A stretch of DNA of 64,000 nt. Source: a virus (lineage: Duplodnaviria > Caudoviricetes). Where the stretch lies: IMG/VR virus record IMGVR_UViG_3300020409_000014, positions 10,503 through 74,502 of that record; one strand, 5' to 3'. Shown one piece after another: positions 5,854 through 32,201 of this stretch. Under the pieces are notes generated by a model, which made no database searches, was not told the origin of the DNA, and was given only the letters and a program-made list of their open reading frames with translations. The position numbers and the translations under genes were made by a program. How positions within the stretch are numbered: the stretch's first letter is position 1; every line of letters begins with the position of its first letter.

Positions 5854-7430
5854 GTTGCATCGTATGTAACTGACGTGGTGTCATACTTCACTGCAGTAGA
5901 TGAGAAGTCAGTATCGCCTTGTCCACCACCTATTCCTGATACAGATAACGTTGCAACGTTAGACATTAGTGGTGAGTTACTTGCATTATTAGCGGGTGCA
6001 GGTCCTCGTAATTCAACTTTATACTTGTAGTTGGACATGTATCCCAACGCAGTAAATGATAGTGAGTTGCTTGTTGCACCAGTAACTTGTGCGTATGCAA
6101 ATCCATCATCAGTTGATCTATACCATTGATATGAAATAGGTCCTGGTATAGGAGAGACATTTGCTTGGACTGTAAAGGTAACAGTTGTATTGACAGATGC
6201 CGTAGCACTTTGAGGTTGTGCAGTAATTTGCAGCGTAGGTGTAACAGGAGGTGCTCCACCGTCTCCACCTTCTTGTGCAGGAGGTGCTGCTGCTCCATTG
6301 TTTGCAGGTTGATTTATACTCTCTCTAGTCATATTCCCAACCATATATGGGAATGCTGCTTCTCCTACAGAGTCAATAGATATAAAATATGCATAAGTCC
6401 CATTTGGAAATTCTGGGGTTACACAGTATCTACCATTGTGAAAATCTAAATCACCTAGACCATCAATATATTCCCAGTCCTGCACTAAAGATCCTGCAGG
6501 AGGGTTTTGTGCAGTAGTGCCATAATCAGGTCTTCCTGCTATTTCAATATTTCTTGTCCTATAACTCGAGGACATAAAACGAGTTGTTTGTGATGCAGTA
6601 AACGGCACGTCATATCCAAAAGGTCCGTATACTGGAAATCCGTCAAAGCAATATCCTAAGATTTTACTATGACCATCAGGGTGACGCATATTGTCACCAT
6701 TAAACTGACTACTACCATAGTAGTCATTATAGTTTGCCATAGCAGAATTCTGCTTCCAACAATCTATAAAATGAGTATCATGATAATGATATTGTCCTGT
6801 TGATTCTGGGTGTCCACCACAAGAATCTTCACCAAAATCTACAGGTGAATTAGGATAATGTGCATTCCATTGAAATCCTACAGGAGGGTTACCACCTGCA
6901 CCTGCACTAGGATTATAGAATACAACTCCATTTGCAGCAATACCTATAGCACCAAGAGGAGTTTCTATACGTCCATTTCTTTGATCATAATATGTGTATG
7001 TGCCTGTTGGTATTGTTTGTGAATCTGCAACAATAAGATCTAATCTTTGGTCTGTGGCGAGCCAGCATTCCCCTGCAATGGACGTAAATGTTGTCCCTCT
7101 AAATATAAATCGTTGTTTCCTACCGTCAGAAAAGATAAAGAAAAGATGATCGCCAGGAGCAATAGTTTGGGCAGCAAATAAAGCATTGTCATTAACTGAT
7201 ATATTTACAGAGATAACAAATCCACTTTGGAAGTATGTGTTATCATCAAATGTCCTCTCAACACCAAACTCACCACCACGATATCTAAACGTATGTGCAA
7301 ATGCCTGCTCTGTAACCGCATTAGGATTATTCAGATTAGGAAACGTGCCATAACTTACTGGATCAGGTAGACCATCACCAGTTACGGCAAGTTGTTTAGT
7401 TGCTGACGTGTATGTTGCTGTAGCGGTCAT
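5850..7430 (-). CDS. YHYH-domain protein with C-terminal Ig-like domain
   Basis: 526 aa; LGAIGIAANGVVFY, GGHP..GQYHYH, GYCFDGFPVYGPFG, DLDFHNGR...PEFPNGTYAYF; Ig-like QPQSATASVNTTVTFTV...YQWY. Confidence 0.85.
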   Translation of the reverse strand: MTATATYTSATKQLAVTGDGLPDPVSYGTFPNLNNPNAVTEQAFAHTFRYRGGEFGVERTFDDNTYFQSGFVISVNISVNDNALFAAQTIAPGDHLFFIFSDGRKQRFIFRGTTFTSIAGECWLATDQRLDLIVADSQTIPTGTYTYYDQRNGRIETPLGAIGIAANGVVFYNPSAGAGGNPPVGFQWNAHYPNSPVDFGEDSCGGHPESTGQYHYHDTHFIDCWKQNSAMANYNDYYGSSQFNGDNMRHPDGHSKILGYCFDGFPVYGPFGYDVPFTASQTTRFMSSSYRTRNIEIAGRPDYGTTAQNPPAGSLVQDWEYIDGLGDLDFHNGRYCVTPEFPNGTYAYFISIDSVGEAAFPYMVGNMTRESINQPANNGAAAPPAQEGGDGGAPPVTPTLQITAQPQSATASVNTTVTFTVQANVSPIPGPISYQWYRSTDDGFAYAQVTGATSNSLSFTALGYMSNYKYKVELRGPAPANNASNSPLMSNVATLSVSGIGGGQGDTDFSSTAVKYDTTSVTYDAT

Positions 7431-10400
7431 GCGTCGTCGAAGATTTGATCAGGAGTGAAGTTAGAGATCACCGTGGATCCGATCTGGACAGATAGGATAG
7501 CGGAGAAGGAGTAAACAGGTGTTGCTCCCGCTGCAGTTATCGCTACTCTGTATTCATCACCATCATCTTGTTGTGTGGTGGAGTTAGTAGGATATGCTGC
7601 TTGGTTTCCACCAATAATGTTAGACCAGACAGTTGTGCCGTAGTCTTTCTTCTGCCACTGATAGTTGAGTGTAGTAGTATTTAGTTGACCATCGGATGCC
7701 CTTACAAAGTCAGCAACCACGGTGAATGTTGCAGTTTGACCTTGGTTAACAGTCACGTTAACTGGGTTGATATTGATTCTAATTAAACCAGGATCAACAA
7801 CGATTGGATTACCCTGTTGATCAATACCCTCACCTGCATAGATGTCGAATCCATTATTTACAGGTGATCCTGTAGGTGTAACAAAATCATCCTCAACAGT
7901 TGTTTCAGCAGCAACTATAGGTAGTGAATATCCACCACCAGTTGCTTTTACGTCGATCCTTTGGATACCCATCATAGGCACCAAACGACCATCGAAACCA
8001 GTAGAGGAGATAATCTCAACGTTAGGTTTAGATGTATAACCATCGCCAGGATTGGTTACAGTAGCAGAAATAATTTGTCCACTAGTAATATTTGCAAGTG
8101 CCTCTGCGTTTCTACCCTTAACTGATCCTGTATATTCAAATGTAATCAAGGAGTTAGAAGATTCAATTAGAGCAACTTCTCTTGGGAATTCTTCACCCTC
8201 GATGTCTAATTGGTCACCTGCCTCAATCGGTGGGACAACAGTTGCAGATATAACGTCAGCATCAGATCCAATGTAAGAGAATCCAACGAAGGTTGCTCCT
8301 GCTCTTGGGACTTCAGCAAAGATTATTCTAGATCCAACAATCTCATATGACACACCTGGCTCCTGTATGATACCGTTGAGTGATACGAGTATGTTGTTTT
8401 CTGGTAAGATCGTTGCAGATGAGACACCTTCTGTCAATGTCAATGAGTAGAAGATTCCATCTAACTTTAAGTTAAAGGAAGATCTTAGTGAATCAAATTC
8501 AAATCCAATATCATCAAGTTGTCTTAGTTTACCAACATAGTATCCAATAAACTCAGATCCAATCTCAGGTGGCTCTGTAAACTGTATCTTGTCAGAGAAT
8601 GCAGTGTATGCATTAATAGCACCTGGTGGTTGTAGAATACCATTAACGAAGATGAGCATGTGTCCTGCAGGATCTGGGAAGTATGCTTGTCCATTCTCAA
8701 CAGATAGTGAGAAGTTTTGCTGCACACCGTCAAATCCTCTGAAGTAACGATCAACACGTCCGACCAATGTCCTTGCATCAGATACAGCAGCTGACCATCC
8801 ATCGTCACCCTTAATAGTCATGTTGTCATAAAACTCACCGACTGCCTGCTCAACCCATATTCTTGCAGTAATACCTTGCTGCTCAATCTTAGAAATCTTA
8901 GCGTAAGAAGTATATGTGTTTTGAGTTATGTTAGTTACATTGGAGTAGATAACAGGGAAGTTTGTGCCGATGTCAAACTTACCAATGAATATACCTGCGT
9001 TTGTTAACTCACTCACAGATGCACCTGTGCCTACAGGTTGGACATTACCAATCCACATCTTATGTGGTATTACAGGACTCACATTGTTATTAGGAGCTTG
9101 ATACTTAGTTACAACCGCTGTTAAACCAGGATTCTTAATAACAGTACCTATGAGCATATTAACTTCATCACCAACTTCAAATGTAGCAGCAAGACCTGCC
9201 TCAATAAATGTAGATCCAAGATCTAATTCTATAACCTCTGTGCCGTGAATAATATCATTTACTTCTGCAACTCCACCTGGTTGGTATATACCCTTAACAT
9301 CTAGGATATAGTCAGTAAGACTACCATAGATGATGTCACCAGTCTCCCATCCAGATTGAATGGTCTCAACATCCATAACAACACGACCACCATCGTTACC
9401 AATAATCGCACCTGACTTATTATCGTAGAATACGATATCTGCCTCAGTGTTATCTGCCTTCTTGAAGATCTTATCTCCAACAGCATATGCACCAAGATCA
9501 ACGTTAAGGAGTAGACGATCTGTTATAGCAGTAATGTCTGCAGTTGTTGAGCTGTCTAGTCCAACAAGAGTATCTCCAACTGCCCAGTTAGGTCCTGTCT
9601 TATCTACAACTCTTAGGATAATTTCTGTGTTACCAGTGTTATAGTTTTGCTGTAATATCTTACCTACAGCAGTTGCATCACCAGACTTGAATACATTTTC
9701 ACCATTAGTGAATTTAGAAACGCCAGGATCTGATGGGTTGCCAAGTTTAACATATAAGAATGTTTCTCTGACAGATGCTTGGTTAAAGGACTGTGACCCA
9801 ATCTCAGCAAATACATCAGATTGTGTGCCGTAAAGGACATCAGCATCAAGGAATCCACCTGAGTATGGAGTCTCTACATCAGGATTACCATATGTTGTAG
9901 TTGCTCTATTAATACCAGATCTTACAAGGACTTGGAAGATATGAGATGATGCTGCAGTATCGTCGAATTCTAATGCTCTAAATCTACCATCATGAGTTGG
10001 GACAGCACCTATTTCAAAGAATGTTGCCTCAGCATTTAAGATATAATATAAAGATTGACCTGTTGTGCCACCTAGTGTGCCACCACCTGCAGGAATGTAT
10101 TGTACAACATCACCACGTCTGAAGAAGTTAGCACGGTAAATTCTGACTCTAAACTCTGCTCTATCATACCCTGCACGAACTGTGGGAGTAAGAGATACAA
10201 GAGCAGGATCGGTATTCCAGTCAAATCCTTCGTTGTATACAACGTGTCTGTTGTGGACGTCAGTATTAGCAATCCATGTAGTCTTCGCCTCAGTAGAGAA
10301 TTTAGATTGCTCAAGTGCAAATTCAAATACGTTAATACTAGAATCCATATTGAATTCTGTTGCTTCCTGATCCCATTCTGTTCTAAGAGCAGGAATGTAA

Positions 10401-13400
10401 AGTCCAGGATCTGCAACGTAAGGAATCCAACCTGCACCGTCAGGAGCATATATGATTGACTTACAATATTCTCTAACACGAGTCATGTGATAGATTAGAT
10501 GTGTCCTAACAATTCCTGTATAGACAATCATATTTCCATCACCATCAAACCAGTTACTGATAGAATCAAATGCCTCAGCATTACCACCTGTAACAAGGTC
10601 ATAAATTACAGCATGAATTATTTGATCTGCAAAGTCTGCATCACCTGCGTAACTAGGATAGAATGCAACAGTTTGATCATATGCTCTCTTTTTAATAGCA
10701 GGTTTGTTGAAGAGTATCATCTTCGCTGCCATCTTATTACTTGTTGATCCACCTGATAAGGTCTCATACATGACCTTATACTTCTTCTCAATCTCTAGTT
10801 TGACATCATAACACTTACCTGCATTATAGAGATTAGATGTAGGTGATGTAGGAGCAGTCTCTGTGACAGTTGTGCCATAGTAAGTAAGACCATTTCCTGC
10901 TACAGCAGCGTCAATACCACCTTCAAGAATTGCCATCAAAGTATTGATTGCAGCAGCTTGAGTAGGACAGGTTTGATTCCACTGTGTTGCTTGATTGTCA
11001 AATGTGACAGATACATCTCTAAGTGGGACATCTCCACTATATTTTGTTGGCCAGATGTTTGGTAGTGTTGGGGTAAATGATCCAGATAGACCATTAGGAT
11101 ATGTTGTTGTATCAGATCCTGTAGGATCATTTATAGTATCAGTAACTATACTAATAAGTCTATTAACTTCGGTATCTACATCAGAGTCACTTATAGCACT
11201 CATATTTCCTTCACCAGTTACCCACTTATCTTCAATGTCAGTAATTGGGACAAACTCAGCACCGTTTGTTGCATGTCTAGAAGGTGTAGTGCCTTGGTAT
11301 ATTTGCTTGGCAATATCTCTAGCAGTATTTGTAATCCAAGTTACTTCATTTACAACGCCTGCGATATGTTGAATAACTCCATTCTCAACATAGTATCCTG
11401 CACCAAGTGCAACCATGTTGTCACCACCATATTCTAGGTTGAATGTATGCCACGCAAGCACATCAGCAACGTCATGGACACAATCAATAGATCCTGCTGC
11501 AGTAATACAATTATGTGTAGCACTTACAAATGCATGAGTATATTGCTGACCTGCAGGTGATGCACCAACGTTAACTGTTACAGTGCCACTCTGTTTTATC
11601 AATGCACCAGATGTTGCACTTACAAATGTATGAGGATATTGCTGTCCAACTTGTGAAGGATAAACATTAACTGCAATATTGTCATCATCAATCTTAGTTA
11701 CTATCAACCACTTATTATTAGCAGGGTCAGTAGATCTTGGATAATCGTGGTTTGTGCTGTTTCCATCTTGTGTGCAAGTAAATCTAATACCATCTGTTGC
11801 AATCTTAATTCTATTTCCAGTTACAAGTCCATGACCTGCAGATGTAATTGTCAAAATACCAGTTGTTTCTTGGTATGATGCATTTGTAATATTTGCAGTC
11901 CCAGTGCCAACAGCAGTTACAGCAACTGTCTTATTATAGTAAGGATCAGTTGTCCTAGGATATGAATGATTAGATGCATTATTATCCTGACTGCATGTAA
12001 ATGTCAATGAGTTAGGAGCAATCATTAAACGATTACCAACATTGAATACATGGTCAGGAATTGTCATTACCATGTCACCAGTTGCAGAGTTGTAAGTAAT
12101 GTTTGTAGGTGTTAGTTTTTGTCCACCAAAATCATCACCCCACTTAATAGATCCTGCAAGTGCACTCTGGAATTGGTGAGTATACTGCTGACCTTGTGGT
12201 GATGCTCCAACGTTTATAGTAATGGTTGTTTGTGATATATCTTCTACAAGAATATTCTTTTCATATACAGGATCAGTTGTCCTTGGATATGGATGATCTG
12301 TTGCATAGTTATCTTGTGAGCAACGTAATGTAATACCTAGAGGAGTAACTCTAACTGTGTCACCTCTTTGGATATCGTGCTTACCAATGGTAACGACCAT
12401 CTTACCATTTGTAGAATTATAATTTACATCTGTAGGAGTGAATTCTTTTGTCCACAATGCACTAGATCCACCATTGATACTTAATGAAGGATACTGATCT
12501 AATCCACGACGGACTGCCTCTTCTGCAATAAATCTAATGTTTCTTTCAATAGCACGAGCAGCATATATTCTATTGTTAGATGCACCATTACGCTCATAAC
12601 TTGAAAGTTGGAAAGTTACTTCGTTATGACCAGGTAAACTATCACGACCAAATCCATTTCTAATTGTTAGGATTGCCATATCTCTAGCAATCTTAAATAC
12701 AGCTTTAGATGCTTCTGTTTCACCTTCGATGTGTTTAATACCACCGTCAGATCTTACATAAAGTTTACCAATTCTATAGGTTTCAGAGTTACCACCATGA
12801 CGTAAATCATGAGCAACACCTGCCAAGATGTCAACAACATCATCTTCACAATCTACAGGGTTGCCAGTTGGCACAATAAATGATCCATACTTAGAAAGGT
12901 CATTCATTGTAGAAACTGCTTCCTTAGCAATTATTCTTGCATTGTCATCAATTAAATCTGCAGCATCAAGGAATTTATTAGATCCAGTCCTTGTTTGATC
13001 AAACTGTTTAGGATCGTAAGTAATTGTCTCATCTCTAAATGCTAATCTTGAAGTATATATTGGTGAGTAATATTCATCTTGATAAGTTGCACTAACACCA
13101 AGAGAAGCAGAAGTTTCGCCTGGTGACATGAGTAAATTATTAATTGCTTTCTTTGCGAGCATCTCTGTATAGTGAATCGCATCAATCATTGGATTCAATT
13201 CATCAGTAATGTAAAGAATCTCATTATCACTATTCAAATAACTATCAATAACCTTCTGTGTTTCAGCATTACCACCCATAATGATGTCACCAATGACAGC
13301 AGGTAATACATGATCCTTAAGGTCACGCAAACACTTGGTGTTGTTTGGAATAGTTAAGAATTGGACTGGGACACTATTAATTGTCTTAGTATAAAGTGCA

Positions 13401-16400
13401 TTGATATGACCAACTGCTTCTTCTGCAATATAATCGCGGTTTTTCCAAATAAGTGCACCTGCATCTCTGAATCTATGTCCAGTAGGAGCAAGGACGTCAG
13501 CGATGTAATCACCTAAAGTATCTAATTGTGTTTCTACTTGAGTTGTGCCAGACAGTGCATGTGGGACACGAAGTTTAGTTGTGTATGTGCCAGTGAGGGT
13601 AGTGTCAGATGTGTTAATTACATACTTACAAAGTTTTACAACTTCACGCCATGCATATAGAGTTTGTAGTAACTCTTGACCAATATACTCAATCTCACCA
13701 CCTCTTGTGCGGTAGAAACGAGCAGTAACGATAACGTTATAGTTACCACCTTCTCTTAGATCTTTTACAATAGCAGGTAAGATATAATCTCTAGTATCTC
13801 TAATACAAACATTTGTGCCACTCATTGTGCCACCTGCACCATAAGTATCGCCAGGTATTGTAAAGTCAGGGAAGAATGCCTGCATGATTCCAACTGCTTC
13901 CTCAGCAATCCAATCACGGTTAATATCAATTATATCTGCAGCGTCTCTATAAATTTCTCTACCAAGATCTACCTCCTCAATAGTAATACGCTTATTGAGA
14001 TAATCAATAGATTTAAGTGTAGATGATGAATTTGTTAAACCAGTAAGTGTAGCGTATACCTCAGTTGTAGAAACTACAAATGGTGCTTCTCCATTAATAC
14101 CAAGGACAATACTACTATTAGTAAAGTCAGGATCTGAAGGAGGAGTAATTGTAGCACCTTCATAATCACCAACACCTTTCTTAACGATAAGATTATCAAG
14201 GTTACCTATAAACTGTTGACCGTTAGAAACATCTTTACCAAGAGCAAATCTTGCAAACTCGTATGTGTTTGTATCGCTGTAAGTTGTTTGCTGCACACCA
14301 TCAATATAGATTGAAGTTACAGCAGACTTTCTAACAACAGCAATATGATGCCATCTAAGTGCAATAAGAGTATTTGTAGATGTAATAAGAGTGCTGCTAC
14401 CATTAGCGAGGATAAGTTGACCACTTCCATTCAATACTAGACTTAGACCTGTTGAGGTTGTTTGTGGACGTCTCATATCAAAGATAATCTGATTACCTGA
14501 TATTGCGTCAGCACGAAGTCTCATCTCAATAGTAAAGTCACCTGTGCCAAACTTAAAGTCATTTCTTTCTGTCTGGACAATCTGTCCAGTGTTAGGAATT
14601 CTAACTGATTTTGTGTTATTAGAAAGAGCTGATAATATTGTAATATCATCTATGGTGCAATTAGAATTAACTAGAGTAGAGTTAGTTACATATTCTCCAA
14701 TACTGAATGTGCCAGTAGCGTTACCACCATATATCCACTTAAGACCATTGTTAGATCCTTTAATAGGAGCAGATGCATTAGTTGTAACACCTTTAAGGTT
14801 TTCGCCAGGTAGGAATAAACCTCTTGATGGATCTTTAAATGCATATTTTGTAACACGAAGAGTTTCACCTGCACTATAACCACCATCAGTGATTGTCCTT
14901 TCAGTAGGAGCAGTCCTTGTGGCGTGTGCCATATTGTTGTTGGTATATGCAGTTGTGTATACACTCATAAGTGTATTAAATGCAGATACAACAGTTGCAC
15001 AACCATTAGTATCTGAATTAACAGGTGTTAGATCTGTGTCAAACCACTGTCTCTTACCATGTATTCCTGTGGCAGCAAATCTAGGATAGTAGTAATCACC
15101 AAATGTCTTAGATACAAAATGTAAGTAATGTAATCTTACTGTGTCTCCATTAGATAATGTTGGAGTATAACTTTCTGCAAGTTGAATAGAAAGTGTGCCC
15201 CCTGCAACGTCATAAGTTGCTAAAGCAATGTCTGCAGTGTTATCTAATGTTACTGCGTTACTTGTAGCACTTACAAATGTATGTGTATAGTTACCACCTG
15301 TGATAACAGCACCAAATGCTGCACTTTGGAAGACGTGCTCATACTGACCTTGTGCAGTTGCAACACCTACGTTTACAGTAATAGTGGTAGATGTTGTATC
15401 TGTAATTGTTATTGCAGTATCATAGTATGGGTCAGTTGTCCTTGGATAAGCATGATCAGTTAGATAGTTATCTTGAGAGCATCTAAAGACTAATGATTCT
15501 TGTGCAATTTTGATAGCAGTGCCTGTCTCTAATTTGTGCTCACCAATAGTCATTACCATCACACCGCTAGATGGACTGTAGGTGATAGCAGTAGGAGTAA
15601 ATGTTATCTCAGGAGATGCACCAACGTTAACTGTAATAGATGTGTTTGCAACAACAGATTTAACTTCTAGAGGTTTGTTATAATATGGATCTTTTCCTGC
15701 TCTAGGATATGTCTTGTTAGAAGATCCACCATCCATTGTGCAATTAAATGTCAAACTATTAGCAGCGATAGAAACAAATCTACCTGCAGTAATATTATGA
15801 GATCCAATAGTTAATACTAAGTCACCAGTTACAGGATTATATGTTGCACCAGTTGGTGTAAATTGTGGTGGTGCCACAACCATCTTACCGTTACCAACAT
15901 AAGTTAATGAGTCACCTGCATTCAGTGTGACAGTTGGGACTGTCACATCAAATGTCCTAGTGGCGTTGTTTACGTTAGCAACTGTAAATGTATCTGTGCC
16001 GTTTTGTATGACACTGCCTGCAATAGTCTGTGCTTCAGCATATATTCCATTAACTTGTGATGCAGTTGTAGGAGAGTCATCATAAGCAATAGCATAAGTT
16101 GCAGCATCATATACTCTACTGTTTCCACCATACTTAATATCATAAGCAATCGCTTCAATTACATCTTTGATATCGTCTGTGCAATCAGCATCAGTTTGGT
16201 GAGGAGTAAATCCTGGATTAGCAGTCTTATAAATGTGAAGTGCTTCTGCAGCAATAAATTCTTTGTTATTAAGAAGAAGGTTTGCACCATCAATATTGAG
16301 ACTACCTTGAGGCACTGGATCAGCAAATACACCAGTAATCTTAGGACCTCCTGTGCCCTCAGATGTATATGAAGTTGTGCCTGTAAGGTTATGTGTATTT

Positions 16401-19400
16401 TCTGCAGTAACAGAGTGAATAACAATGTCAGTTAAGAATGTAATATTCTGTTGAATATCAGCACAGTTACTTAAACTCTGAGCATTACCAGATGAGTAAT
16501 TAGGATCATAAGTATGTGCAGGAGCAGATCCACCGTAAGTTATAGGATCGTTTAAGTTATATCCTTCGTTACCAATATCTTTTACATAGAGCAAGTTGTT
16601 GATAGCATAAAACATTGTGTCTCTTGCTTTCAATATTGCAGTCTGTGATTCAGCAACTTCACCATAGAATCCGTTAAGAATAAAGTTACCAGTAGTATCA
16701 AAATATTGCTCTGCAAAGTTTTGAGAATTAAACTCACCACCTGAGCTTAAATCATCAGCAATAGCATCTATGAATAATCCTAAGTCACGACGACATTTTT
16801 CTTGACCTATAGAAGTTGTAGGCTCAACTTCAGTAGGAATATCATTTAGATTACCTGCAGCTATTGCTTCGTTTTGCCATGTCCAGATAGTAGTAATTGC
16901 AGACTGCACGTCGCTACAATTATCAGTAGTAGCGTTATCTGTATTGCTGCCTGGAGTCGCATACGGAGATCCTGGTGATGGGTCTGCTGTGATTGAGAGG
17001 TCTGCATAATAAGTTGCTTCGTCGGTTGAATTAGTTGCACTGAATACACCAGTTAACTGGTTTGTAATAGCAGCAAGACATAAGTCTTTTGCTTTCTCTA
17101 CAATGAATAATAACTCAGCACTTGCTCTACTATAGTTAAGTGTAGTTGAATCTGAGAAGTATTCATTAATCCACTTCAAGGAGTATTGGTTACCACCTGA
17201 GTGAATATCTAATGCAAGAGATTCTATCCATAGTCTAACATCATCTAGGTAACCTTGCTTGTCTCCTGCAGAAGTGCCAGTGAAAGCTGTTTTTTGTAGA
17301 TCATATGCTCTTAAAGATATTGCATCAATATTCTTAAGAATCATACGATATGCATCTCTAAATCTTGATGTTGTGTTAGTCTGCACATCGCCAGGATAAT
17401 AGAAATCAGGATGCTCTACTGCAACCCAACGCTCTGCTCTGTCAATAATTTCTTGTCTATTTCTACCAATACTTCTAGCACCGTCATTTGCTCTGTTACC
17501 TGCATTACCTACAAGGTTTGCATAGAATATTGCTTTGTTTCTTAGAGCATCACCTTTAGCAAATGTGCCACTAGAAAGATTATCGTATTCAATCTCAGTG
17601 CTTCTAACTTCTTCAAAGTCTAAGAAATCTTCATTGATTCTAGCCTCTGCATCGTACAATTGTACTGGTGTAATACTTGACTGAGAAATATCATCAAGTA
17701 TGACATTAGGATTCTGAATAGCAACAAGTCTTTCGTAGATAAGACCGAAGAATGTAGATCCTCTGTTAATGATTAGAGTGTCAACAGGTTGACCAGTATT
17801 AGGATCTAGATATGGACTAATAAATGTAATCTGAGCAACGATCTTAGAGTTACTTGAGTAGATGTATTCGTTTAATTTAATATCAAAGATACCAGTTTCA
17901 AATCTTGAAGTACCTGAAGTCTTACTTAATAGTAATGTGTCTGTTGCATTACCTTGTGCATCAAGGTTTGTTTCTTCAATGATTGCTATATCACCGTCAA
18001 AGTTAGTGATTGTCTCTTGGAATTTAAAGAGACTTTCAGTGTTGATAAGATCTACACTTCCTACAACAGCATTGAATAATGTTGTCCTCTTAATTATTTC
18101 ACTGACTGTGAAAGGTCCGTCAGTAATGTTAATAACATCAATATGGAATGTCCCTGAGTCAATAACAGTTGCATATGCATCAGAAGACTCACCATTAACT
18201 TGCTGACCCATCTCAGGGAATATACCCTGTGGGTTTACTAATGTAATTCTGTAAACTGGTATAGTTGTAAATCTAACAGCTCTATATCTAACCTGTGATG
18301 CTGCTTTTGGTGGCTCAGCAAATACAATTTGATTACCAACAATTTGATATGATGTGCCAGGTGCTTGGATAACACCATTCAATGTAATCATCAACTGATT
18401 ACCTTTAACAATTACACCTTCACCTTCTACAGTGATTGGGAATGATTTTAATATTCCATCAAAATCATCAGATATATCATCAATCTTCTTAACGATAGAA
18501 GTTAAGATTTCCTCAGATGATGTTAATCTTCTACTTCTGAATAATACCTCAGTATTGTTGTAGTCAGTATATACTGGCTCAGCAGCACCAAATGATGTGA
18601 TCTGGTTTACGTTAGTATACTCATTAATATTAACTTCTTTAATAAATTCTGTGCCAACCTTTCTACCAGATACGTCTTTACCACCAGTTAGTGATAACTG
18701 ACCAAACATCTTAAATCCTGTAGGATGGTTGTTGTCTAATACTTGCTTCTTCCATCTTGTAATAGGAATCTCAGATGTAATAACATAAGAGAATGACTGA
18801 TAGAAGAAACTATCTTGAATCTTCTGGACAATCTCAGATGGTTTACCAACATCATCGATGAATCTACCAGGTGTTTGTGTAATTGAGTCAATATTCAATA
18901 CACCACGAGCAATGCTTAAGTTATCGATAATACCAGATGCTTTAGAAACCTCACCTGATACTTTTTCACCTTGGACAAAGTTACCTGTATAATCAACAAC
19001 CTTAAGAATCTTAGGACCTATCTGCCAACCAGTATTGGTAGAAACAAAACCTGTTGCAGATGCTTGCTCAGGACTATTACCTTGGAAAATTTTCTCACCT
19101 TCTAGGAATCTAGATGTTGCAACAACAGCAGTAGCAGTACCTCCAAACACCTCAGTTAAGAGAGTTTGTCGTCCCTCACCCTGTGTTAGGAAGGTAATAA
19201 AGTCACCAGACTGTGCGGCTTGTAACGTTAATCCGAAGCGTAATTGATCAGATTCTAACTGATCAGCAATAGCATAGTATATCTGTCCTTCAACTAATTG
19301 AGTCAAACCTGCACTACTTGGTTTTGGTAGTATACCAGTTGTAGATCCTATACTATCAGCACGCAACTGAATAGCAGCACCTGTTGTAATACCATGTGGG

Positions 19401-22400
19401 AAGTTAAACTGTAGATAGTTAAGATCTAAGTTAACAACATAGTTAAATTCTGATTTTAGAGTTACAGTTGGCTCAGATGAATATCCTTGACCTGGATTCT
19501 TAATAAGAATCTCATTCAAACGATTGTTTTTGATAACCGCTTCTGCCTCAGCACCTGATCCACCACCACCTTCGATTACAACTGCAGGAGCAGATGTGTA
19601 ACCAGAACCTGGATCAGTTATGGTAATCTCAGTTAGTATTGAAGTATTAAAGAGTTGTAGGTTAACAGGGAATGTAATCTCAGGACGTAGAGTGTAGTCA
19701 TGTGAATATCCAAATCCAAACTCATTGTTTTTAAGTCTCTTAATCTTACCGATATTTTTACCAGTTAGGAATACAGATGCACCACTACCTTCATCAGGAA
19801 TTACAACTGCTAATGCAGCACCAGATCCTGCAAGTTGAGGTCCTAAGATACCTGTGATACTATCAACGTCTATACTTGCAGTTGTATAACCTTTACCTGG
19901 ATCTGCAACAGATACATCTGAAATTGTGCCTGATCCAATCTCTTCATCAAGAGTAACAGTGATAGTTGCTAAACCACCTTCACCATCTCCATCGATAGGC
20001 ACGTTATAGTAAACGCCAGGTTGATATTCTGTACCTCCTGAGGTTATAGTAATACGCTCAATCTGTCTGAATGATGCAATATCAGATATAATAGGTAACT
20101 TCTGATAGAATCCACCTGGTGATACTAGTTTAATAGTATTGATAGGTCCTATTGCTTTTACAGATGTTGTTGAATAGAATGAGAATGGATTGCCGTTTTC
20201 GTCATCTTGGACTTCAGCAGATGAGGTTTCTGGCTCAAGTAGTAATGGGAATTTGAATTCAGTATTGTTGACAATTTGTGATATAGTAAATGTGCCATCA
20301 TAAGGTGTCTTAATAATATCAATAAATGAATTTGCACCAACAGGAGACATTGATCCAATTCTAGATGGATCAAAGTAGTAAGAAATATTAGTTACATTAC
20401 CAATAGCAGAGAATTTAACATATGGTCTTAGACCTTCTGCTTGGACACCTGGTGTCCCAACTCTAGTAATATTATTAAAGGAGTATTCCAACTTATACTG
20501 GTTATCCTGTGCAAATGACAGATAGTAACCGAAGTTAGATGCATCACCAACATCAAAGACATATTGATGCTCTCTAATAAATGTTAGAGATGGATGTTTA
20601 GCAAATATATTAACATTGCTTATACTGTTTTGATTGAATACAGGATCACCTGCAGCAGTATTTCTTAGTCCAAATACAAATTCTCTACTACCAAATACTT
20701 CACGAATAAAGAATGACCCGTTGTATTCTGTAGTATTAAATCCTTCAGTAAATATAATTTCATTAGCTCTGTAATTATGAGGTGTCACAGATGTTGCATA
20801 AACAAGATCTGATCTTGCATCACTAACTTTCTTAATATCTTTCTTAAGAGTTGTAGTTAACTCAACTTCTTTAACAGATGCAAATCCAGTTACCTTAACA
20901 ACCTTATATGCATCAGTGCCTTCATCATCAACAACAATATTTCCAGAGTTGATAGCAATAACATCGCCAGGTATGTAAGATGATGCAGGTTGTACCTTTC
21001 TAATCTTAACTGAGTATTGTCCATCACTGTATTGTTGGAATCTAGCATAGTCAGATAGTGGTTGCTCTGTAGATTTCCATTCCCATGTTACGCCACCATC
21101 AGACGCTGTGCCAGTTGTATGTACTGGTGCAATGGTGCCTGATGTACCTGCAACTGTTACTTCATATATGTTACGCTGCCAATAAACTTGATATCCTACA
21201 GGGAAATTAACTCCCTGATCCCAACGATCCATATCCATTCCTCTGTATTGAGGTTTGGGGTATGGCTCAGTTTGAATGTCAATGTTAAACTCACCTGCAT
21301 TTCTAATAAACACCCATGTAACAGAACCGTCACTTACAGCACCAGTAGTGTGTGTTGGGGGAGTTACACCAGATGTGCCACCTGATTGTGCCTCGTATAT
21401 CTTCTTAGCATAGTATACTCTGTCAGCAGTAGCATATGCAGTACCTGTGACCCAAATATTTTCTTCCTCAACACCAATAAATGTTTGCTCAGGTATTATG
21501 TTTATATCTGTTGCTTCTGTAGATCTTAATAGATCAGTAGTATTGAATGTGCCGAAGATCTTACCAATCTTATACTTATTACCTAGACCAGGATTTGTTG
21601 TAGTGCCTACAGGAGTTTCTACAATCGTGCCGTATGCTTGGACTACACCAAGAGCATTGTATTGCTGAAGAATTGCACCTTTAGTAAACTTAACATCTTG
21701 GTTAAGAGTATATTCAAGGATGTTATCAATCTTACTGTAAGTTGCATCTTTAATATAGAATTTAGGCACAACGTTTGCAGTAACAAACATCTTCTGACCA
21801 TTCTTAACAGGTATAGTAGAAGACTTAGATGCAAACTGCTCTCTGTTGTTTGTCCATGTGTACGTTTGTACTGGTGTGTATACACTGGGCGAATCTGAGA
21901 AGTCAAGTAGTTGTAGACCACCTGCTCCAACATCCCACTGATCAATAGAAGGTAAACCTGCATCTGACCATGTGCCAGTTGTCCACTCACTGATAGTAAG
22001 ATTAGAATAGTTAGTAGGTGTAGTTAATGTATATGTGCCTCTTCCAGAAGTATGTGCTCTGTCAATCTTAATAGCAACCACGTCACTGATTTCATGTGAT
22101 AGTGGGTATTTGGTTGTAGGAGGAGTAAAGGTTGACTCAAACTCATCAAGTTTAGATATAATCCAATCGTCAATATGACCAATAAATGCCTTAGTTGCAA
22201 CTGATGGCTCAGTGCCACCTAATCCAACAGACGCCATATTAACGTCAATTAGAGTTTGATATGTAACTGCAAGTGTGCCATCATAGTAAACATTGATTTC
22301 CCATACACCTGATCCAGTGTTTTCTTTAACAAGTGCAATATGATGCCATGCTGCAGCAGCAAAGTTTCCCCAGTAAGTAGTCTCTGTAGAAGAAGCAACT

Positions 22401-25400
22401 ACACTACCATTTACCTCAAGAATAATTTTACCGAAGTTTGGATCAGATGAGATACCCATAAGGTATGCAGAAACACCAGAGGTGCCATTTACTTCAACAG
22501 TGTCAAAGAAGTGTGGAGTATTACCTGCTGCATATGCAGTGGTATTCATACTAAACCATGCTGCAGTAGTCCAGTTTTGACCTTCCCATGCTAAACCAGA
22601 TGCAGTAGCACGGTTTGCTGCTTGGAATTTGAGTGATCCAGTGCCATACTTATAATATGATGTATCTACCTCAGCATCAGCAGGTGTTTGAATTGTAAGA
22701 GTAGATATAGTCTGTTTAGTTGTATCATAGTCTAAATCAGCACTATTATCAAATCTATAGACTGCAAGTTGATTAGGAATCAATCTTTCAGCAACAGTGA
22801 TGATATCACCAGAATTATCAACTGTAGATGTCTTACCAACTTGTCCAACAGAATCAGTTGTTTCTATTAATGATTCTTCTTTTATTGTGCCATCATACTT
22901 AAGTGAAGATACAATATTAGTTTTTCTGTCTTCGTCATAATCTATAGCAGCAGTTATGACAACATCTCCAAATACATCGATATGTAGACCAGTATTCTTA
23001 ATAGAGACGTAATTTCCTTGAGGAGTTAATGATTTACGGAATAACCAAGGTTTTGGTAATGTAGCACCTTGGTTATTCGTATAAGTTGCATTTGTGTCTC
23101 CAAGAGGAATTTTACCAAGTTGAATTCTTTCAAATTTACCATTTGCATTATTAAAGACATCATATAAGAAAAATACGTCATTATACTCGTCAATAGTAAA
23201 TCTTGGGTTTCTTGCATAACCACCAAGAGCAGGGACTTGTTTTACGAAGTCAACATTGATATTTGACCCATCATATGAGAATGTGCCGTATATCATGTTA
23301 TCAGTTGTCTGGTTGACACCTACAAACATAAATGTGCTATTTGAAACCCATCTAATCTGTGTAAGATCCTCATCACCATTTGGAGAAGATATTTTACGCT
23401 TCTCTTTTAGATCTCCATCATTATTAGATTGAATGATCCAAATATCATTTGCATCTATTGCCTGAGTATCAGTATAACCAACAAGGTAGATATTGTTATT
23501 TTCGTCAAGAGCAATGTCAGTAATATAGTCTCTACGTTGTCCACCAGATATACCTGCGATAGACTTCTGCCACTTTAAAGTACCTGTAGGATTGTTTTGT
23601 GCATCCCTTTCTGACTCATATTTACCAAACCAGACATCTGGATTATAATTGGCGTTATCGGGGTCATATGTTTGGCCACCAACATATATGAGGTCGTTTT
23701 CTTGTGAGTCATCAACGTATAGACAAGTAAATTCAAGTTTCTTAGTGCCTGCATTATTTGGAAGCAATGTCCTAACCCACTGCACCTCACCAAGGTCATC
23801 AAACTTGGCAATGAAACCAACTTGATCATTATCGATATCTTCTACTAAAGATCCACAAATATAGTAGTCTCTATTAACTGTTGAGTAACTATCGAATATG
23901 GTAACGTTACCACTGTCATTCAAATACTCTGATAACCAATAACGTGTTTTAGTATTTGACTGTGGATGTGATACTCTGATTTGTGGGACATTAGTTGTGC
24001 TATAACCATTACCAGAGTTTACAATATTAAATGAGCTTGCAACACCTGCAGCGTCTAAGTTGATAGTAAATTCAGCATCAACACCACCTGAGTCATCAAC
24101 CAACTCATATGTTGGAGGTATTAACTCACTATATCCAATACCTTCTATATCTACTGTAACACTCTCAATACCATCTACAACTTTTACAGTAAACTCTTTA
24201 TTTGTATTTGACGTAATAGGAGTGCTATCTACAATAACTTCATCACCTTGAGAAAGATCATGGTTTTCAGAAGTTGTAATAACACCATATGGTCTATCAC
24301 CAATTATTTCCTTGACATATGCACTTATAGGGACACCTTTAATACTATCAATAATTGCAGAAGCACCAAATCCACCAGTGCCTTCATTATCGAAGAATAC
24401 GGTATCATTTACCTGATAAGATCTACCAGGATTCTCAATAACGAAACCATCAATTTGTGCAGTTTCAAACTGAGTAACAGTCTCTACATCGATGTCAACT
24501 TTAGACTCAAGTGAGACTTGTGGGAAGTAATCATATATCTGTAGTGTAGGCTCCTCTTGTAACTGTAATATCTCTTGTTGCTCATTAGCATCAATAATAC
24601 CATCTTGGTTACTATCTTGAATCTCAAAGATGATAGGATAACCTTCTATCTCAGTTGTTAAAACATCTGCCTCTTGGTTTGGTAAACGCTCAACATCTAT
24701 GTCCACATTCTCATATGGGACTCTATATCTTACAACATCAGCAGGAATATTTTCTTGGACTGCACCTTGACTTAAATTCCACTCATCTGGAAGTGAGTTA
24801 AATGCAGGACCCATAATGTATGGGAATAGTGGTAAACCATCTGAAGATGCATCAATAGTAACGAAGTATGCATATGTGCCATCAGGATACTCAGGTGTTT
24901 TACAGAAACGACCGTTATATTGATCTAGGTCACCTTGTTGGAAAACATACTCATAGTCAGGTACAAATGACCCTGCAGGATAAGTTGCTAGTAGAGGACC
25001 GTCAACTCTAGCAGGATTTGGGTTTGCATCTGATAATACTATCTCAGGTTTAAGTTGATATGATGTGCGAAGTCTTCTTACACCACTGTTTTGATCGGTT
25101 GGGTTTGCATATCCATAAGGACCGTAGATTGGGTTTCCATCATATGCCCATCCTAAGATTGGAGAGTGTTGGAAGTTAGTTTCAATTTCTTGGAATTTTC
25201 CTGTTTCTTGATCTAAGAATACATTGTCTCCAACAACATAACGTAATTCTTTTGGATCTGAGAGGTGAGCATATTCTCCACCATACTGGTTGTTAAGTCC
25301 AGTAAATACATATCCTCTTGCTATATCATACTTGTTAGAAAGCTCATATTCAAAGTTTTTATTCCACTCAAATACCTGTGCAGTGAATGTTGCCAATTCA

Positions 25401-29458: not shown

Positions 29459-29461
29459 AAC

Positions 29462-31585: not shown

Positions 31586-31995
31586 TACGTCCTCTCTAGT
31601 ATAAAGTCGATCTCTTTAAGGATTCTTTCTCCTACGATTGTATATTCAACTCTAACTTCCAATGAGTTAGTGTCAAAACCGTCTTGCACATTGACAGATG
31701 TCACTCTGATACGTTTTTCGTATCTGTCTAGAGTGCTTTGTATTTCATCTTTGATTGCCTCACCTGTAAAAACATCATAAGGCTCAAATAGTAGTCCAGT
31801 TACTCTAGATCCGACATCATACTGAAAGGGTTTCTCACCAATATCGGTTTTAATCAGATTTAGGACTGCCTGCTTGATTGCATTCTCATTTTTGACAGCA
31901 CCAAAGTCGCGGCTATTAGGATTTGCTTTGAAAGACATTGCAAAATCTCTAAAACCACGACTTATGTTTTTATCTGATCGAATTCTGTATGACAC
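31585..31995 (-). CDS. gp25: Baseplate wedge subunit gp25 (GPW/gp25 family)
   Basis: 136 aa; NENAIKQAVLNLIKTDIGEKPF..DVGS, LDRYEKRI; upstream of gp6. Confidence 0.92.
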   Translation of the reverse strand: MSYRIRSDKNISRGFRDFAMSFKANPNSRDFGAVKNENAIKQAVLNLIKTDIGEKPFQYDVGSRVTGLLFEPYDVFTGEAIKDEIQSTLDRYEKRIRVTSVNVQDGFDTNSLEVRVEYTIVGERILKEIDFILERT

Positions 31996-32039
31996 TATGC
32001 ATTAATAATGAATTTTGCCATAATATAGGTTACGTTTAT

Positions 32040-32046
32040 TATTTAG
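32040..32046 (-). promoter_or_regulatory. Late-promoter-like element (CTAAATA)
   Basis: TAAATA core 45 bp upstream of gp25, overlapping the stop of the small basic ORF. Confidence 0.55.
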
Positions 32047-32183
32047 CCTTGTCCACGATACTTTTTACGAGGCTTATTTCTTGAGGTAGCAGACAATTTA
32101 CTATTTTGACTTTTACCTTGTCTAGTTTTCTTTGGTCTTGTATCTACTCCGCCAGATACAAAAGCGTTTGATCGTGTTGCCAT
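32043..32183 (-). CDS. Small basic protein (46 aa)
   Basis: Manual translation MATRSNAFVSGGVDTRPKKTRQGKSQNSKLSATSRNKPRKKYRGQG; fills the PAAR-gp25 gap; resembles a small protein commonly found here in cyanomyoviruses. Confidence 0.8.
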   Translation of the reverse strand: MATRSNAFVSGGVDTRPKKTRQGKSQNSKLSATSRNKPRKKYRGQG

Positions 32184-32201
32184 AATAATTTAATAAGTTT
32201 A

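What the first reader, a model, noticed from the sequence alone, without database searches (positions are those of the whole stretch)
10470..17485. Phycobiliprotein-like domains with bilin-attachment cysteines built into the phage baseplate protein: a possibly pigmented, light-sensing virion
Seen: gp7 has about eight helical repeats. Set against phycobiliprotein sequences quoted from memory (to be verified), spacing matches without gaps. AARAIERNIRFIAEEAVRRGLDQYP vs alpha-PC [42 protein letters not shown] vs beta-PC DAVNRITSNASTIVSNA. IIDRAERWVAVEHPDFYYPG vs alpha-APC [44 protein letters not shown] vs alpha-PC [24 protein letters not shown]. Six of eight repeats keep the Cys84-equivalent (CRRD 16793, CTDD 16181, CIRD 13805, CLRD 13331, CEDD 12848, CVHD 11480). 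Downstream helices carry a second Cys matching beta-Cys155: CSDVQSAITTIW vs CSALASEIASYF (16916, 16463, 14999, 10967, 10811). Established: Cys84/Arg86/Asp87 and beta-Cys155 are bilin sites; T-type lyases serve Cys155; many cyanomyoviruses carry ho1/pebS/pcyA/cpeT whose target is unresolved; light-dependent adsorption is reported for some cyanophages. Inference: the virion is chromophorylated by the phage bilin pathway, or uses these domains as phycobilisome-derived binding modules.
Basis: partly seen in the sequence, partly recalled or inferred. Interest (0 to 1): 0.93.

Follow-up and report, generated by a model that had tools for sequence, protein, structure and literature searches.

The report
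Phycobiliprotein-fold domains in cyanophage baseplate protein
The giant baseplate protein of this marine cyanobacterial virus contains eight domains that are true relatives of its host's light-harvesting pigment proteins and keep both pigment-attachment cysteines, so it can now be tested whether the virus particle carries pigment and senses light.

Summary
Every quoted peptide and cysteine lies at the stated coordinates, in a 7,343-aa gp7-position ORF (7427-29458, minus strand) of a P-TIM40-like cyanomyovirus.

The eight repeats are phycobiliprotein (PBP) homologues:
- Pfam PF00502 scores 32.8 bits over the region (cut-off 22.2).
- A 62-unit profile finds only PBPs among its 60 best PDB matches (best E 1e-5).
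- hhalign against 30 real PBPs gives 95% probability, E 2e-8.
- An AlphaFold model of unit 1 plus the next "Cys-helix" superposes on whole beta-phycocyanin/phycoerythrin chains (Z 14-15, rmsd 1.9-2.9 A). This puts the second cysteine where beta-Cys155 sits.

The chromophore-site residues are kept (Cys84 74%, Asp87 86%, Cys-helix Cys 143/143). The alpha-beta interface residues (Asp13, Arg93) are lost.

The domain occurs only in cyanophage virion proteins. In 21 genomes it co-occurs with cpeT in 20, but this reflects one evolutionary event and is not independent evidence. ho1 and the bilin reductases show no association with it.

Whether bilin is attached is untested; I put it at about 45%, and light sensing at about 20%. 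I found no publication describing this. The scan has made the same finding on at least eight other cyanophage genomes.

The parts
7427..29458 (-). Giant ORF of 7,343 aa in the T4 gp7 position, between gp6-like and gp10/gp8-like genes. It belongs to phrog_701 'virion structural protein' and phrog_2885 'baseplate wedge subunit'.
10421..17506 (-). Phycobiliprotein-like region, aa 3985-6346. It holds eight units plus nested domains.
17051..17497 (-). Unit 1 core (aa 3988-4136), with an extra N-terminal B-like helix followed by helices A/B, E, F and G. The Cys84 position is Tyr4070.
16850..16927 (-). Cys-helix of unit 1. It is modelled as helix H, and C4181 (codon 16916-16918) sits at the beta-Cys153/155 position.
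16574..16816 (-). Unit 2 core (aa 4215-4295). Only helices E, F and G are present. Site motif CRRD, C4222 at 16793-16795.
16397..16474 (-). Cys-helix after unit 2, with C4332 at 16463-16465.
15983..16306 (-). Unit 3 core (aa 4385-4492). Site motif CTDD, C4426 at 16181-16183.
15023..15961 (-). Beta-modules carrying a C-S/T-Q-D...YPR..DP motif. They lie between helix G of unit 3 and its Cys-helix, so they are nested in the G-H loop.
   Evidence: (phrog_1276)
14927..15010 (-). Cys-helix after the nested beta-modules. It is the presumed helix H of unit 3. C4820 at 14999-15001.
14189..14584 (-). Laminin_G_3 / concanavalin-A-like lectin domain (aa 4959-5090).
   Evidence: E 2.4e-15
13595..13966 (-). 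Unit 4 core (aa 5165-5288). Site motif CIRD, C5218 at 13805-13807.
13484..13555 (-). Helix-H-type helix after unit 4. It has no cysteine.
13118..13477 (-). Unit 5 core (aa 5328-5447). Site motif CLRD, C5376 at 13331-13333, the only Cys in this unit.
12635..12982 (-). Unit 6 core (aa 5493-5608). Site motif CEDD, C5537 at 12848-12850, the only Cys in this unit.
12455..12577 (-). Unit 7, N-terminal half (helix A/B). On its own it scores 17.8 bits against PF00502.
11519..12445 (-). Three beta-modules nested in the B-E loop of unit 7.
11270..11506 (-). Unit 7, C-terminal half (helices E to G). Site motif CVHD, C5993 at 11480-11482.
10901..10978 (-). Cys-helix after unit 7, with C6164 at 10967-10969.
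10745..10822 (-). A further Cys-capped helix, with C6216 at 10811-10813.
10421..10741 (-). Unit 8 core (aa 6240-6346). The Cys84 segment is deleted, while Asp87 is kept.

Best explanation
Shown: aa 3985-6346 of the gp7-position baseplate protein is a chain of eight domains that descend from a host beta-type phycobiliprotein (PBP). Each domain is a monomeric PBP globin fold made of helices A/B, E, F and G, a long G-H loop, and in several units a helix H. The domains are strung in tandem, and beta-modules and a lectin domain are nested in their B-E and G-H loops. The residues that PBPs use to form the alpha-beta pair (Asp13, Arg93) are gone. The two bilin-attachment cysteines and Asp87 are kept.

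Inferred, as the most likely mechanism (about 45%): during infection at least some of these pockets are loaded with host- or phage-made bilin. The candidates are the C-x-R-D units 2, 4 and 5 and the Cys-capped H helices. Loading at the Cys84-type sites would be by host S-type lyases or autocatalytic, as in ApcE. Loading at the Cys155-type sites would be by the phage T-type lyase CpeT. The baseplate would then leave the cell pigmented.

Further inference (about 20%): light absorbed by these bilins changes the conformation of the baseplate or fibres and so gates adsorption.

The confidence value given here is for the bilin-loading mechanism. Homology itself I put at about 0.97.
For: Homology
- PF00502 scores 32.8 bits against a cut-off of 22.2 over the region.
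- Seven of seven unit-1-type domains from related phages hit PF00502 singly, two of them above the cut-off.
- A 62-unit profile searched against PDB sequences gives a best E of 1.1e-5. The 60 best matches shown are all PBPs, aligned in register.
- hhalign against 30 real PBPs gives probability 95.4% and E 1.8e-8 over PBP residues 35-145.

Fold
- Unit 5 model: the VIA-align wide search has PBPs, ApcE and a photocobilin as its top nine, Z 11.5-9.8. Foldseek's listed top hits (to rank 49) are all PBPs.
- Model of unit 1 plus Cys-helix plus unit 2: pLDDT 83, pTM 0.85. The first 39 rows are PBP-family chains, mostly beta subunits (the 39th is an ApcE-type core-membrane linker chain), with Z 15.4-11.1 falling to 4.8 for the next hit. 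For example, 6jpr_B aligns at rmsd 1.9 A over 129 residues, model 44-216 to chain 32-172.

Site retention in 62 representative units
- Cys84 46 of 62, Asp87 53 of 62, Gly102 53 of 62, Asn47-equivalent 62 of 62.
- Arg86 in 25 of the 46 Cys-bearing units.
- Arg93-equivalent 0 of 62.
- In 20 units Cys84 is the only Cys, so an intra-unit disulfide is excluded there.
- Where Cys is absent it is replaced by Tyr or Trp, or the segment is deleted.
- The Cys-helix Cys is present in 143 of 143 aligned instances when that column is masked in the model.
- 11 of the protein's 29 Cys sit at these two site types.

Context
- The domain is found only in cyanophage records.
- Units and cpeT agree in 20 of 21 genomes.
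- cpeT lies 0.7-1.4 kb upstream of the unit-bearing fibre gene in Syn1 and S-PM2. In one metagenomic phage, ho1-cpeT lies 4.3 kb upstream.
- All 6 unit-bearing phages isolated on bilin-poor Prochlorococcus carry a bilin reductase. None of the 10 isolated on Synechococcus do.

Literature
- The role of phage cpeT and the bilin genes is described as unresolved (PMC3037559).
- Light-dependent adsorption of P-HM1/2 and S-PM2 does not depend on host photosynthesis and may lie in the tail fibres (PMC6628666). These phages have 6-12 units. P-SSM2, which adsorbs in the dark, has none.
Against: - No pigment has been measured, and I know of no report of coloured or fluorescent cyanophage virions.
- I could not inspect model coordinates, so an open pocket is not shown.
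- Arg86 is replaced by Asp or His in 18 of the 46 Cys-bearing units, including units 3, 6 and 7 here. Units 1 and 8 lack Cys84.
- The cpeT co-occurrence amounts to one change on the portal tree. It gives 2 independent pairs, and the sign test has no power.
- S-SKS1 has a Cys-bearing unit plus a Cys-helix but no cpeT.
- ho1 and the bilin reductases are not associated with the units, and P-SSM2 and S-SSM7 have both genes without units.
- The sequence match of the Cys-helix to beta helix H is not significant on its own: E 0.03, against 0.29 for a reversed control.
- Foldseek E-values are weak: 0.02 for unit 5 and 0.5 for the two-unit model.
Confidence: 0.45

Rival explanations
1. Pigment-free scaffold. 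The PBP fold was captured from the host and is now only a rigid helical building block and insertion platform for receptor-binding modules. The cysteines and Asp87 persist for packing or helix-capping reasons, and no bilin is bound.
For: - The units carry nested beta-modules and a lectin domain, as a scaffold would.
- The alpha-beta interface residues are lost.
- Arg86 is not conserved in about half of the units, and units 1 and 8 lack Cys84 altogether.
- The domain sits in giant proteins with up to 35 matched stretches per protein, which looks like fibre building.
- The bilin-synthesis genes are not associated with the units.
Against: - A scaffold role would not be expected to keep exactly the two attachment cysteines (74% and 143 of 143) in a protein otherwise depleted of Cys.
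- Conservation is selective: chromophore-site residues are kept while assembly residues are lost.
- From my own knowledge, not tested here: apo-phycobiliproteins are generally unstable without bilin.
Confidence: 0.4
2. The conserved cysteines serve another chemistry. Examples are disulfides that form between domains after release into oxidising seawater, or binding of a metal or another ligand in the former bilin pocket, which is lined by Asp87, Asp90 and Asp98.
For: - 26 of the 46 Cys84-bearing units have two or three Cys.
- Helix E carries a conserved acidic stripe: D87 53 of 62, D90 37 of 62, D98 55 of 62.
- The two-unit model is compact, with pTM 0.85, so cysteines of neighbouring units could be close.
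Against: - 20 units have a single Cys.
- In phycobiliproteins the Cys84 and Cys155 sites are far apart (established structural knowledge).
- No known metal-binding motif was detected by Pfam.
Confidence: 0.1
3. The resemblance is convergent or a chance result of helical composition, and the repeats are not related to phycobiliproteins.
For: - Single units of this protein score below Pfam's cut-off.
- Foldseek E-values are above 0.01.
Against: Four independent lines agree and are in register: Pfam, a profile search of PDB sequences, hhalign against real PBPs, and structure searches with two aligners. PBPs fill the top of every list except the Foldseek search of the two-unit model. In the VIA-align list, Z drops from 11 to below 5 after the last PBP.
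Confidence: 0.03

Closest known systems
Phycobiliprotein beta subunits (CpcB, CpeB, cryptophyte beta chains; Pfam PF00502)
   Same: - The sequence profile matches from helix A/B to helix G.
- The predicted fold superposes on the whole chain including helix H (Z 14-15).
- The Cys84/Asp87 site is kept.
- A Cys sits at the N-cap of helix H after a long G-H loop, like beta-Cys155.
- Asp is found at the position-39 equivalent in 40 of 62 units. Among the 30 real PBPs sampled, only the 7 beta PC/PE chains have Asp there.
   Different: - These are not free 17-20 kDa subunits. They are eight tandem domains inside a 7,343-aa virion protein.
- Asp13 and Arg93 (the alpha-beta interface) are absent.
- Arg86 is kept in only about half of the units.
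- Foreign domains are nested in the loops.
- No phycobilisome context, and no bilin has been shown.
ApcE (core-membrane linker) phycobiliprotein domain
   Same: It is a PBP-fold domain embedded in a large multi-domain protein, with a loop insertion. It is among the top structural hits: 4xxi_A at Z 11.4 and 7eyd chains at Z 10-11. From my own knowledge, it attaches its bilin without a separate lyase, which is a precedent for loading a non-canonical PBP domain.
   Different: ApcE has one such domain plus REP linker domains and sits in the phycobilisome core. Its attachment cysteine is at a different position. It is cellular, not a virion protein.
T4 gp7 baseplate wedge protein and its giant cyanophage versions (phrog_701 / phrog_2885)
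   Same: - Same gene position, between gp6-like and gp10/gp8-like genes.
- Strong PHROG matches along the whole length.
- Relatives are annotated as 'baseplate wedge initiator'.
   Different: It is about seven times longer than T4 gp7. No PBP-like region has been described for T4 gp7. The Pfam Baseplate_wedge match is only E 0.013.
PBP-fold bilin binders outside phycobilisomes (photocobilins 8j2y/8j2w; bacterial fluorescent protein 8u0f)
   Same: They share the globin-like bilin-binding fold and are used outside light harvesting. They appear among the hits.
   Different: They are cellular photoreceptor or fluorescent proteins, not virion components. They score lower than the true PBPs.

Membership tests
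Phycobiliprotein family (Pfam PF00502 Phycobilisome) | Sequence match to the family profile above the curated cut-off | tested here: met
   The region scores 32.8 bits against a cut-off of 22.2. Single units of related phages score 23.4 and 22.6 bits. The best single unit of this protein scores only 17.8 bits. hhalign against 30 real PBPs gives probability 95.4% and E 1.8e-8.
Phycobiliprotein family (Pfam PF00502 Phycobilisome) | Globin-like PBP fold with helices A/B, E, F, G and H | tested here: met
   This rests on predicted models only. Unit 5 gives Z 11.5-9.8 to PBPs. Unit 1 plus Cys-helix gives Z 15.4-13.5, rmsd 1.9-2.9 A, and covers beta chains from residues 6-32 to 172-177.
Phycobiliprotein family (Pfam PF00502 Phycobilisome) | Cys84-x-Arg86-Asp87 chromophore motif (invariant in the 30 real PBPs) | tested here: inconclusive
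   In this protein, Cys plus Asp is present in 6 of 8 units and the full C-x-R-D in 3 of 8 (units 2, 4 and 5). Across the family: Cys 46 of 62, Asp 53 of 62, Arg in 25 of the 46 Cys-bearing units.
Phycobiliprotein family (Pfam PF00502 Phycobilisome) | Covalently bound bilin | not testable with these tools
   This needs spectroscopy, Zn-blot or mass spectrometry on virions or on recombinant domains.
Phycobiliprotein family (Pfam PF00502 Phycobilisome) | Alpha-beta heterodimer interface (X-Y hairpin, invariant Asp13 and Arg93) and assembly into trimers and phycobilisomes | tested here: not met
   The Arg93 equivalent is Arg in 0 of 62 units. The Asp13 region is not covered by the profile alignment. 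The domains are covalently tandem in a virion protein.
Beta-subunit Cys155 site (substrate of T-type lyases CpcT/CpeT) | Cysteine at the N-cap of helix H, following the G-H loop | tested here: inconclusive
   The model places the Cys-helix (C4181 at model residue 197, helix 198-217) on beta helix H, with model 216 aligned to chain 172. hhalign aligns the Cys to Cys153, but at E 0.03. The Cys is invariant in 143 of 143 helices. No residue-level coordinates were available.
T4 gp7-type baseplate wedge protein | Position in the baseplate gene cluster and homology to baseplate wedge families | tested here: met
   The gene order is gp25-like, gp6-like, this ORF, then gp10-like and gp8-like, as annotated in P-TIM40. 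phrog_2885 'baseplate wedge subunit' matches at E 3.7e-141. Presence in the virion was not tested here.

The most novel reading that the evidence does not exclude
The virion is a pigment-protein complex. Bilins are thioether-linked to the Cys84-type and Cys155-type sites of the baseplate and fibre PBP domains, the latter by phage CpeT, whose true substrate would then be the phage's own structural protein. Light absorbed by these bilins switches the baseplate or fibres into an adsorption-competent state. That would explain light-dependent adsorption and make this the first virus particle known to carry its own photoreceptor.
Probability: 0.2. Interest if true: 0.97.

Novelty: new variant of a known kind. 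Interest (0 to 1): 0.85.

Why it matters
Three long-standing puzzles of cyanophage biology become directly testable with one set of experiments:
- why most cyanomyoviruses carry a T-type bilin lyase gene without the rest of the host operon (PMC3037559 calls its role unresolved);
- why phages of bilin-poor Prochlorococcus carry bilin-synthesis genes (the same paper calls this 'a mystery');
- how adsorption of S-PM2, P-HM1 and P-HM2 can depend on light without host photosynthesis (PMC6628666).

If the domains are pigmented, this would be the first virion with a built-in chromophore or light sensor. If they are not, it is still a clear case of a host photosynthetic antenna protein being captured, multiplied and turned into a structural module of a virus particle. 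The profile search found at least 1,395 cluster representatives containing such units. It would also supply a set of monomeric, tandem PBP-fold domains that may interest protein engineers.

Tried and rejected
- The search for related loci with alignments A1 and A4: no stretch conserved enough to search with.
- A scan of IMG/VR with one CpeT: only six, mostly short, contigs. A wider co-occurrence test was therefore not possible.
- The search for homologous proteins for free-standing single units: one hit, P0176, which is a fragment of a giant gene broken by frameshifts in a long-read assembly. No PBP reached the E-value limit against that database size.
- hhalign of the Cys-helix against the mixed alpha/beta/APC alignment: no signal. 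Against beta chains only it was in register but not significant.
- Foldseek gave no match at E <= 0.001 for either model. For the two-unit model, unrelated helical proteins outrank the PBPs by E-value, and only the PBPs have probability 0.98 or more.
- Raw co-occurrence of units and cpeT: rejected as evidence in its own right after the portal tree showed a single event.
- My first unit boundaries treated the Cys-helix as the N-terminal 'helix 0' of the next unit. I revised this after one search placed it as helix H of the preceding unit.
- PMC5336146 (the phage CpeT structure paper) is not held in the library. What I say about it rests on my own knowledge.

Full report
**What is there**

The window comes from a 74.5-kb fragment of a T4-like cyanomyovirus. 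Its closest isolate is Prochlorococcus phage P-TIM40, at 88% amino-acid identity over the region tested. The finding lies inside one ORF, 7427-29458 on the minus strand, of 7,343 aa. This ORF follows gp25-like and gp6-like genes and precedes gp10-like and gp8-like genes, as annotated in P-TIM40. It matches phrog_701 ('virion structural protein') along its whole length and phrog_2885 ('baseplate wedge subunit') at E 3.7e-141. Relatives are annotated 'baseplate wedge initiator'. Calling it a gp7-position baseplate protein is therefore justified. Its presence in the virion was not tested here.

**Check of the observation**

All quoted peptides and all eleven cysteines are at the stated coordinates. 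Seven repeat units align at 21-32% identity. An HMM built from them recovers an eighth unit as two halves, aa 5616-5679 and 5969-6063, separated by about 290 aa. It finds nothing else in the protein or in any other ORF of the window.

**Homology to phycobiliproteins**

- Pfam gives PF00502 (Phycobilisome) at 32.8 bits, E 8e-8, for the region, above the cut-off of 22.2. The score is summed over weak stretches. Taken alone, only the first half of unit 7 is reported, at 17.8 bits.
- A profile of this protein's seven units, searched against all PDB sequences, returned almost only phycobiliproteins, best E 1e-3.
- I then collected the region from 75 IMG/VR phage contigs and extracted 416 units. I reduced these to 62 units sharing less than 70% identity. 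That profile improved to E 1.1e-5. The 60 best matches shown are all PBPs, aligned in register: unit positions 43-102 to PBP residues 36-102.
- Unit-1-type domains of seven other phages each hit PF00502 as their top family. Two exceed the cut-off.
- I took 30 genuine PBP genes from five cyanobacterial genomes. Profile-profile comparison gave probability 95.4% and E 1.8e-8 over 103 columns, covering PBP residues 35-145.

**Fold**

An AlphaFold2 model of unit 5 (pLDDT 84) gave only PBPs in Foldseek's listed top hits (to rank 49), though at weak E-values of 0.02-0.1 and TM about 0.55. An independent all-against-all VIA-align search put allophycocyanin, the ApcE PBP domain, phycoerythrin and a photocobilin on top, at Z 11.5-9.8. 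Globin sensors followed at about Z 8.

A second model covered aa 3985-4302, that is unit 1, the following Cys-capped helix and unit 2, with a 24-sequence alignment. It had pLDDT 83 and pTM 0.85. Re-aligned to Foldseek's 1,000 best chains, the first 39 rows are PBP-family chains, mostly beta subunits (the 39th is an ApcE-type core-membrane linker chain), at Z 15.4-11.1. The next chain scores 4.8. One example is 6jpr_B: Z 14.2, rmsd 1.9 A over 129 residues, model 44-216 to chain 32-172. Foldseek's own E-values for this longer model are not significant.

The alignment runs to the C-terminus of the beta chains. The Cys-capped helix (model 198-217) is therefore modelled as helix H of the preceding unit. 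C4181 (model residue 197) falls where beta-Cys153/155 lies. I had first treated this helix as the N-terminus of the next unit, and I revised that reading here.

**The two cysteine sites**

Counts in the 62 representative units:

| Position (PBP numbering) | Phage units |
|---|---|
| Cys84 | 46 of 62 |
| Asp87 | 53 of 62 |
| Gly102 | 53 of 62 |
| Asn47 equivalent | 62 of 62 |
| Ile51 equivalent | 60 of 62 |
| Arg86 | 25 of the 46 Cys-bearing units (Asp in 12, His in 6) |
| Arg93 equivalent | 0 of 62 |

In the 30 real PBPs, Asp13, Cys84, Arg86, Asp87, Arg93 and Gly102 are all invariant. The phage family has thus kept chromophore-site and fold residues and lost the alpha-beta interface residues.

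Twenty units have Cys84 as their only cysteine, which rules out an intra-unit disulfide there. Where Cys is missing it is replaced by Tyr or Trp, or the segment is deleted.

The Cys-capped helix is a recurrent element with the motif n-C-[SA]-D-V-x-S-A-I-x-T-L. With the Cys column masked in the model, 143 of 143 aligned unique instances carry Cys. Against seven beta PBPs, hhalign's best local alignment puts this Cys on Cys153. The score is not significant, however: E 0.03, against 0.29 for a reversed control.

The whole protein has only 29 Cys, and 11 of them sit at these two site types. In this protein the full C-x-R-D motif is present in units 2, 4 and 5. Units 3 and 6 have C-x-D-D, unit 7 has C-x-H-D, unit 1 has Tyr, and unit 8 has a deletion.

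**Architecture**

- Beta-modules (phrog_1276) lie between helix G of unit 3 and its Cys-helix.
- Three more beta-modules split unit 7 between helices B and E.
- A Laminin_G_3 lectin-like domain (E 2.4e-15) lies between units 3 and 4.

**Distribution**

A profile search of 1.84 billion cluster representatives found 1,395 proteins at E <= 1e-3. These include giant proteins with up to 35 matched stretches. They hit PF00502 more strongly, up to 61 bits. Where I looked, they lie in T4-like structural gene clusters.

In the phage collection, matches to the units come only from Synechococcus and Prochlorococcus phages, in proteins annotated as baseplate, tail-fibre or structural proteins. The few non-cyanophage matches were not inspected. 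The non-cyanophage record that was listed matches only the C-terminal fibre part of the query.

**Link to the bilin genes**

The 74.5-kb fragment itself holds no cpeT, bilin reductase or heme oxygenase. P-TIM40 has cpeT and a bilin reductase.

Across 21 cyanomyovirus genomes:

| | cpeT present | cpeT absent |
|---|---|---|
| Units present | 15 | 1 (S-SKS1) |
| Units absent | 0 | 5 (P-SSM2, S-SM2, S-SSM7, P-TIM68, S-CRM01) |

S-SKS1 has one C-x-D-D unit plus a Cys-helix. On a portal tree, the four marine double-negative phages and S-SKS1 form one clade, and S-CRM01 is the outgroup. The pattern therefore needs only one change of cpeT and two of the units, and the independent-pairs test has no power. 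It is compatible with a link but is not evidence for one.

Gene neighbourhood adds a little. cpeT lies 1.4 kb upstream of the unit-bearing giant fibre gene in S-PM2 and 0.7 kb upstream in Syn1. The coordinates suggest the same arrangement in S-RSM4. In one metagenomic phage, ho1-cpeT lies 4.3 kb upstream of a giant unit-array gene (20 matched stretches).

Bilin reductase (8 of 21 genomes) and heme oxygenase (4 of 21) are not associated with the units. P-SSM2 and S-SSM7 have both genes and no units. Among unit-bearing phages, all six isolated on Prochlorococcus carry a reductase, and none of the ten isolated on Synechococcus do. That pattern fits a phage need for bilin in bilin-poor hosts, but it does not say what the bilin is used for.

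**Literature**

Eight full-text searches found no description of PBP-like domains in cyanophage virion proteins.

- Sullivan et al. 2010 call the role of phage cpeT 'unresolved' and that of pcyA/pebS 'a mystery' (PMC3037559).
- Liu et al. 2019 report that P-HM1 and P-HM2 do not adsorb in the dark, whereas P-SSM2 does. They attribute this possibly to light-sensitive receptors or tail fibres, independent of host photosynthesis as shown for S-PM2 (PMC6628666). In my counts P-HM1 and P-HM2 have 6 units each, S-PM2 has 12, and P-SSM2 has none. That is three to four data points and no more than an anecdote.
- T-type lyases serve beta-Cys153/155 (PMC10452541).
- That the P-HM1 CpeT binds PEB tightly but did not transfer it to host CpeB is from my own recollection of Gasper et al. 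2017. The library does not hold that paper.

**Verdict**

Homology to beta-type phycobiliproteins: about 97%. Bilin bound in at least some units: about 45%. Pigment-free scaffold: about 40%. Other cysteine chemistry: about 10%. Light-gated adsorption through these domains: about 20%.

The same kind of finding was made earlier in this scan on at least eight other cyanophage genomes, with similar verdicts. My tests were done independently before I read those notes. They add three things: the phylogenetic correction of the cpeT co-occurrence, the S-SKS1 exception, and structural support from the model for the helix-H / Cys155 assignment.

Noticed in passing
window 15023-15961 and 11519-12445 (-): There are five ~90-aa beta-modules with a conserved Cys, Asp and His and a YPR..DP motif (phrog_1276, function unknown). 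They are nested in the G-H loop of unit 3 and the B-E loop of unit 7. Five of the protein's 29 Cys are here.
   Followed up: partly
window ~24848-25294 (-), aa 1389-1537 of the giant protein: A YHYH domain (PF14240, E 8.8e-30) and an SBBP beta-propeller repeat (aa ~1972-1997) lie in the N-terminal third. Neither belongs to the PBP-like region.
   Followed up: no
21 cyanomyovirus genomes: Among unit-bearing phages, a ferredoxin-dependent bilin reductase is present in all 6 isolated on Prochlorococcus and in none of the 10 isolated on Synechococcus.
   Followed up: partly
L238 (S-PM2 154143-167723) and L239 (Syn1 19673-33236): The gene order is conserved: small hypothetical gene, cpeT, tRNA genes, 2OG-Fe(II) oxygenase, giant unit-bearing 'short tail fiber' gene, gp12-like gene. 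The oxygenase sits directly upstream of the fibre gene.
   Followed up: partly
L082 4507-5719 and 10001-18784: In this metagenomic cyanophage contig, heme oxygenase and cpeT overlap head to tail, 4.3 kb upstream of a 2,927-aa protein with 20 matched PBP-like stretches.
   Followed up: partly
P0092 / P0175 (NCBI MAG contigs of 2-5 kb): Unit-array proteins are labelled 'Candidatus Nanopelagicaceae bacterium' in freshwater MAGs. These are probably mis-binned phage contigs, and they suggest the domain also occurs in freshwater phages.
   Followed up: no
L261 (S-SKS1 15500-19500): A 928-aa S-SKS1 protein has a single PBP-like unit (C-A-D-D) followed about 30 aa later by a Cys-capped helix. This is the simplest natural example of the unit-plus-helix-H arrangement, and the genome has no cpeT.
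   Followed up: partly
PMC2984593: The 2010 review states that cpeT is absent from P-SSM4. PF06206 matches a 148-aa ORF in P-SSM4 at 37.4 and 22.9 bits.
   Followed up: partly
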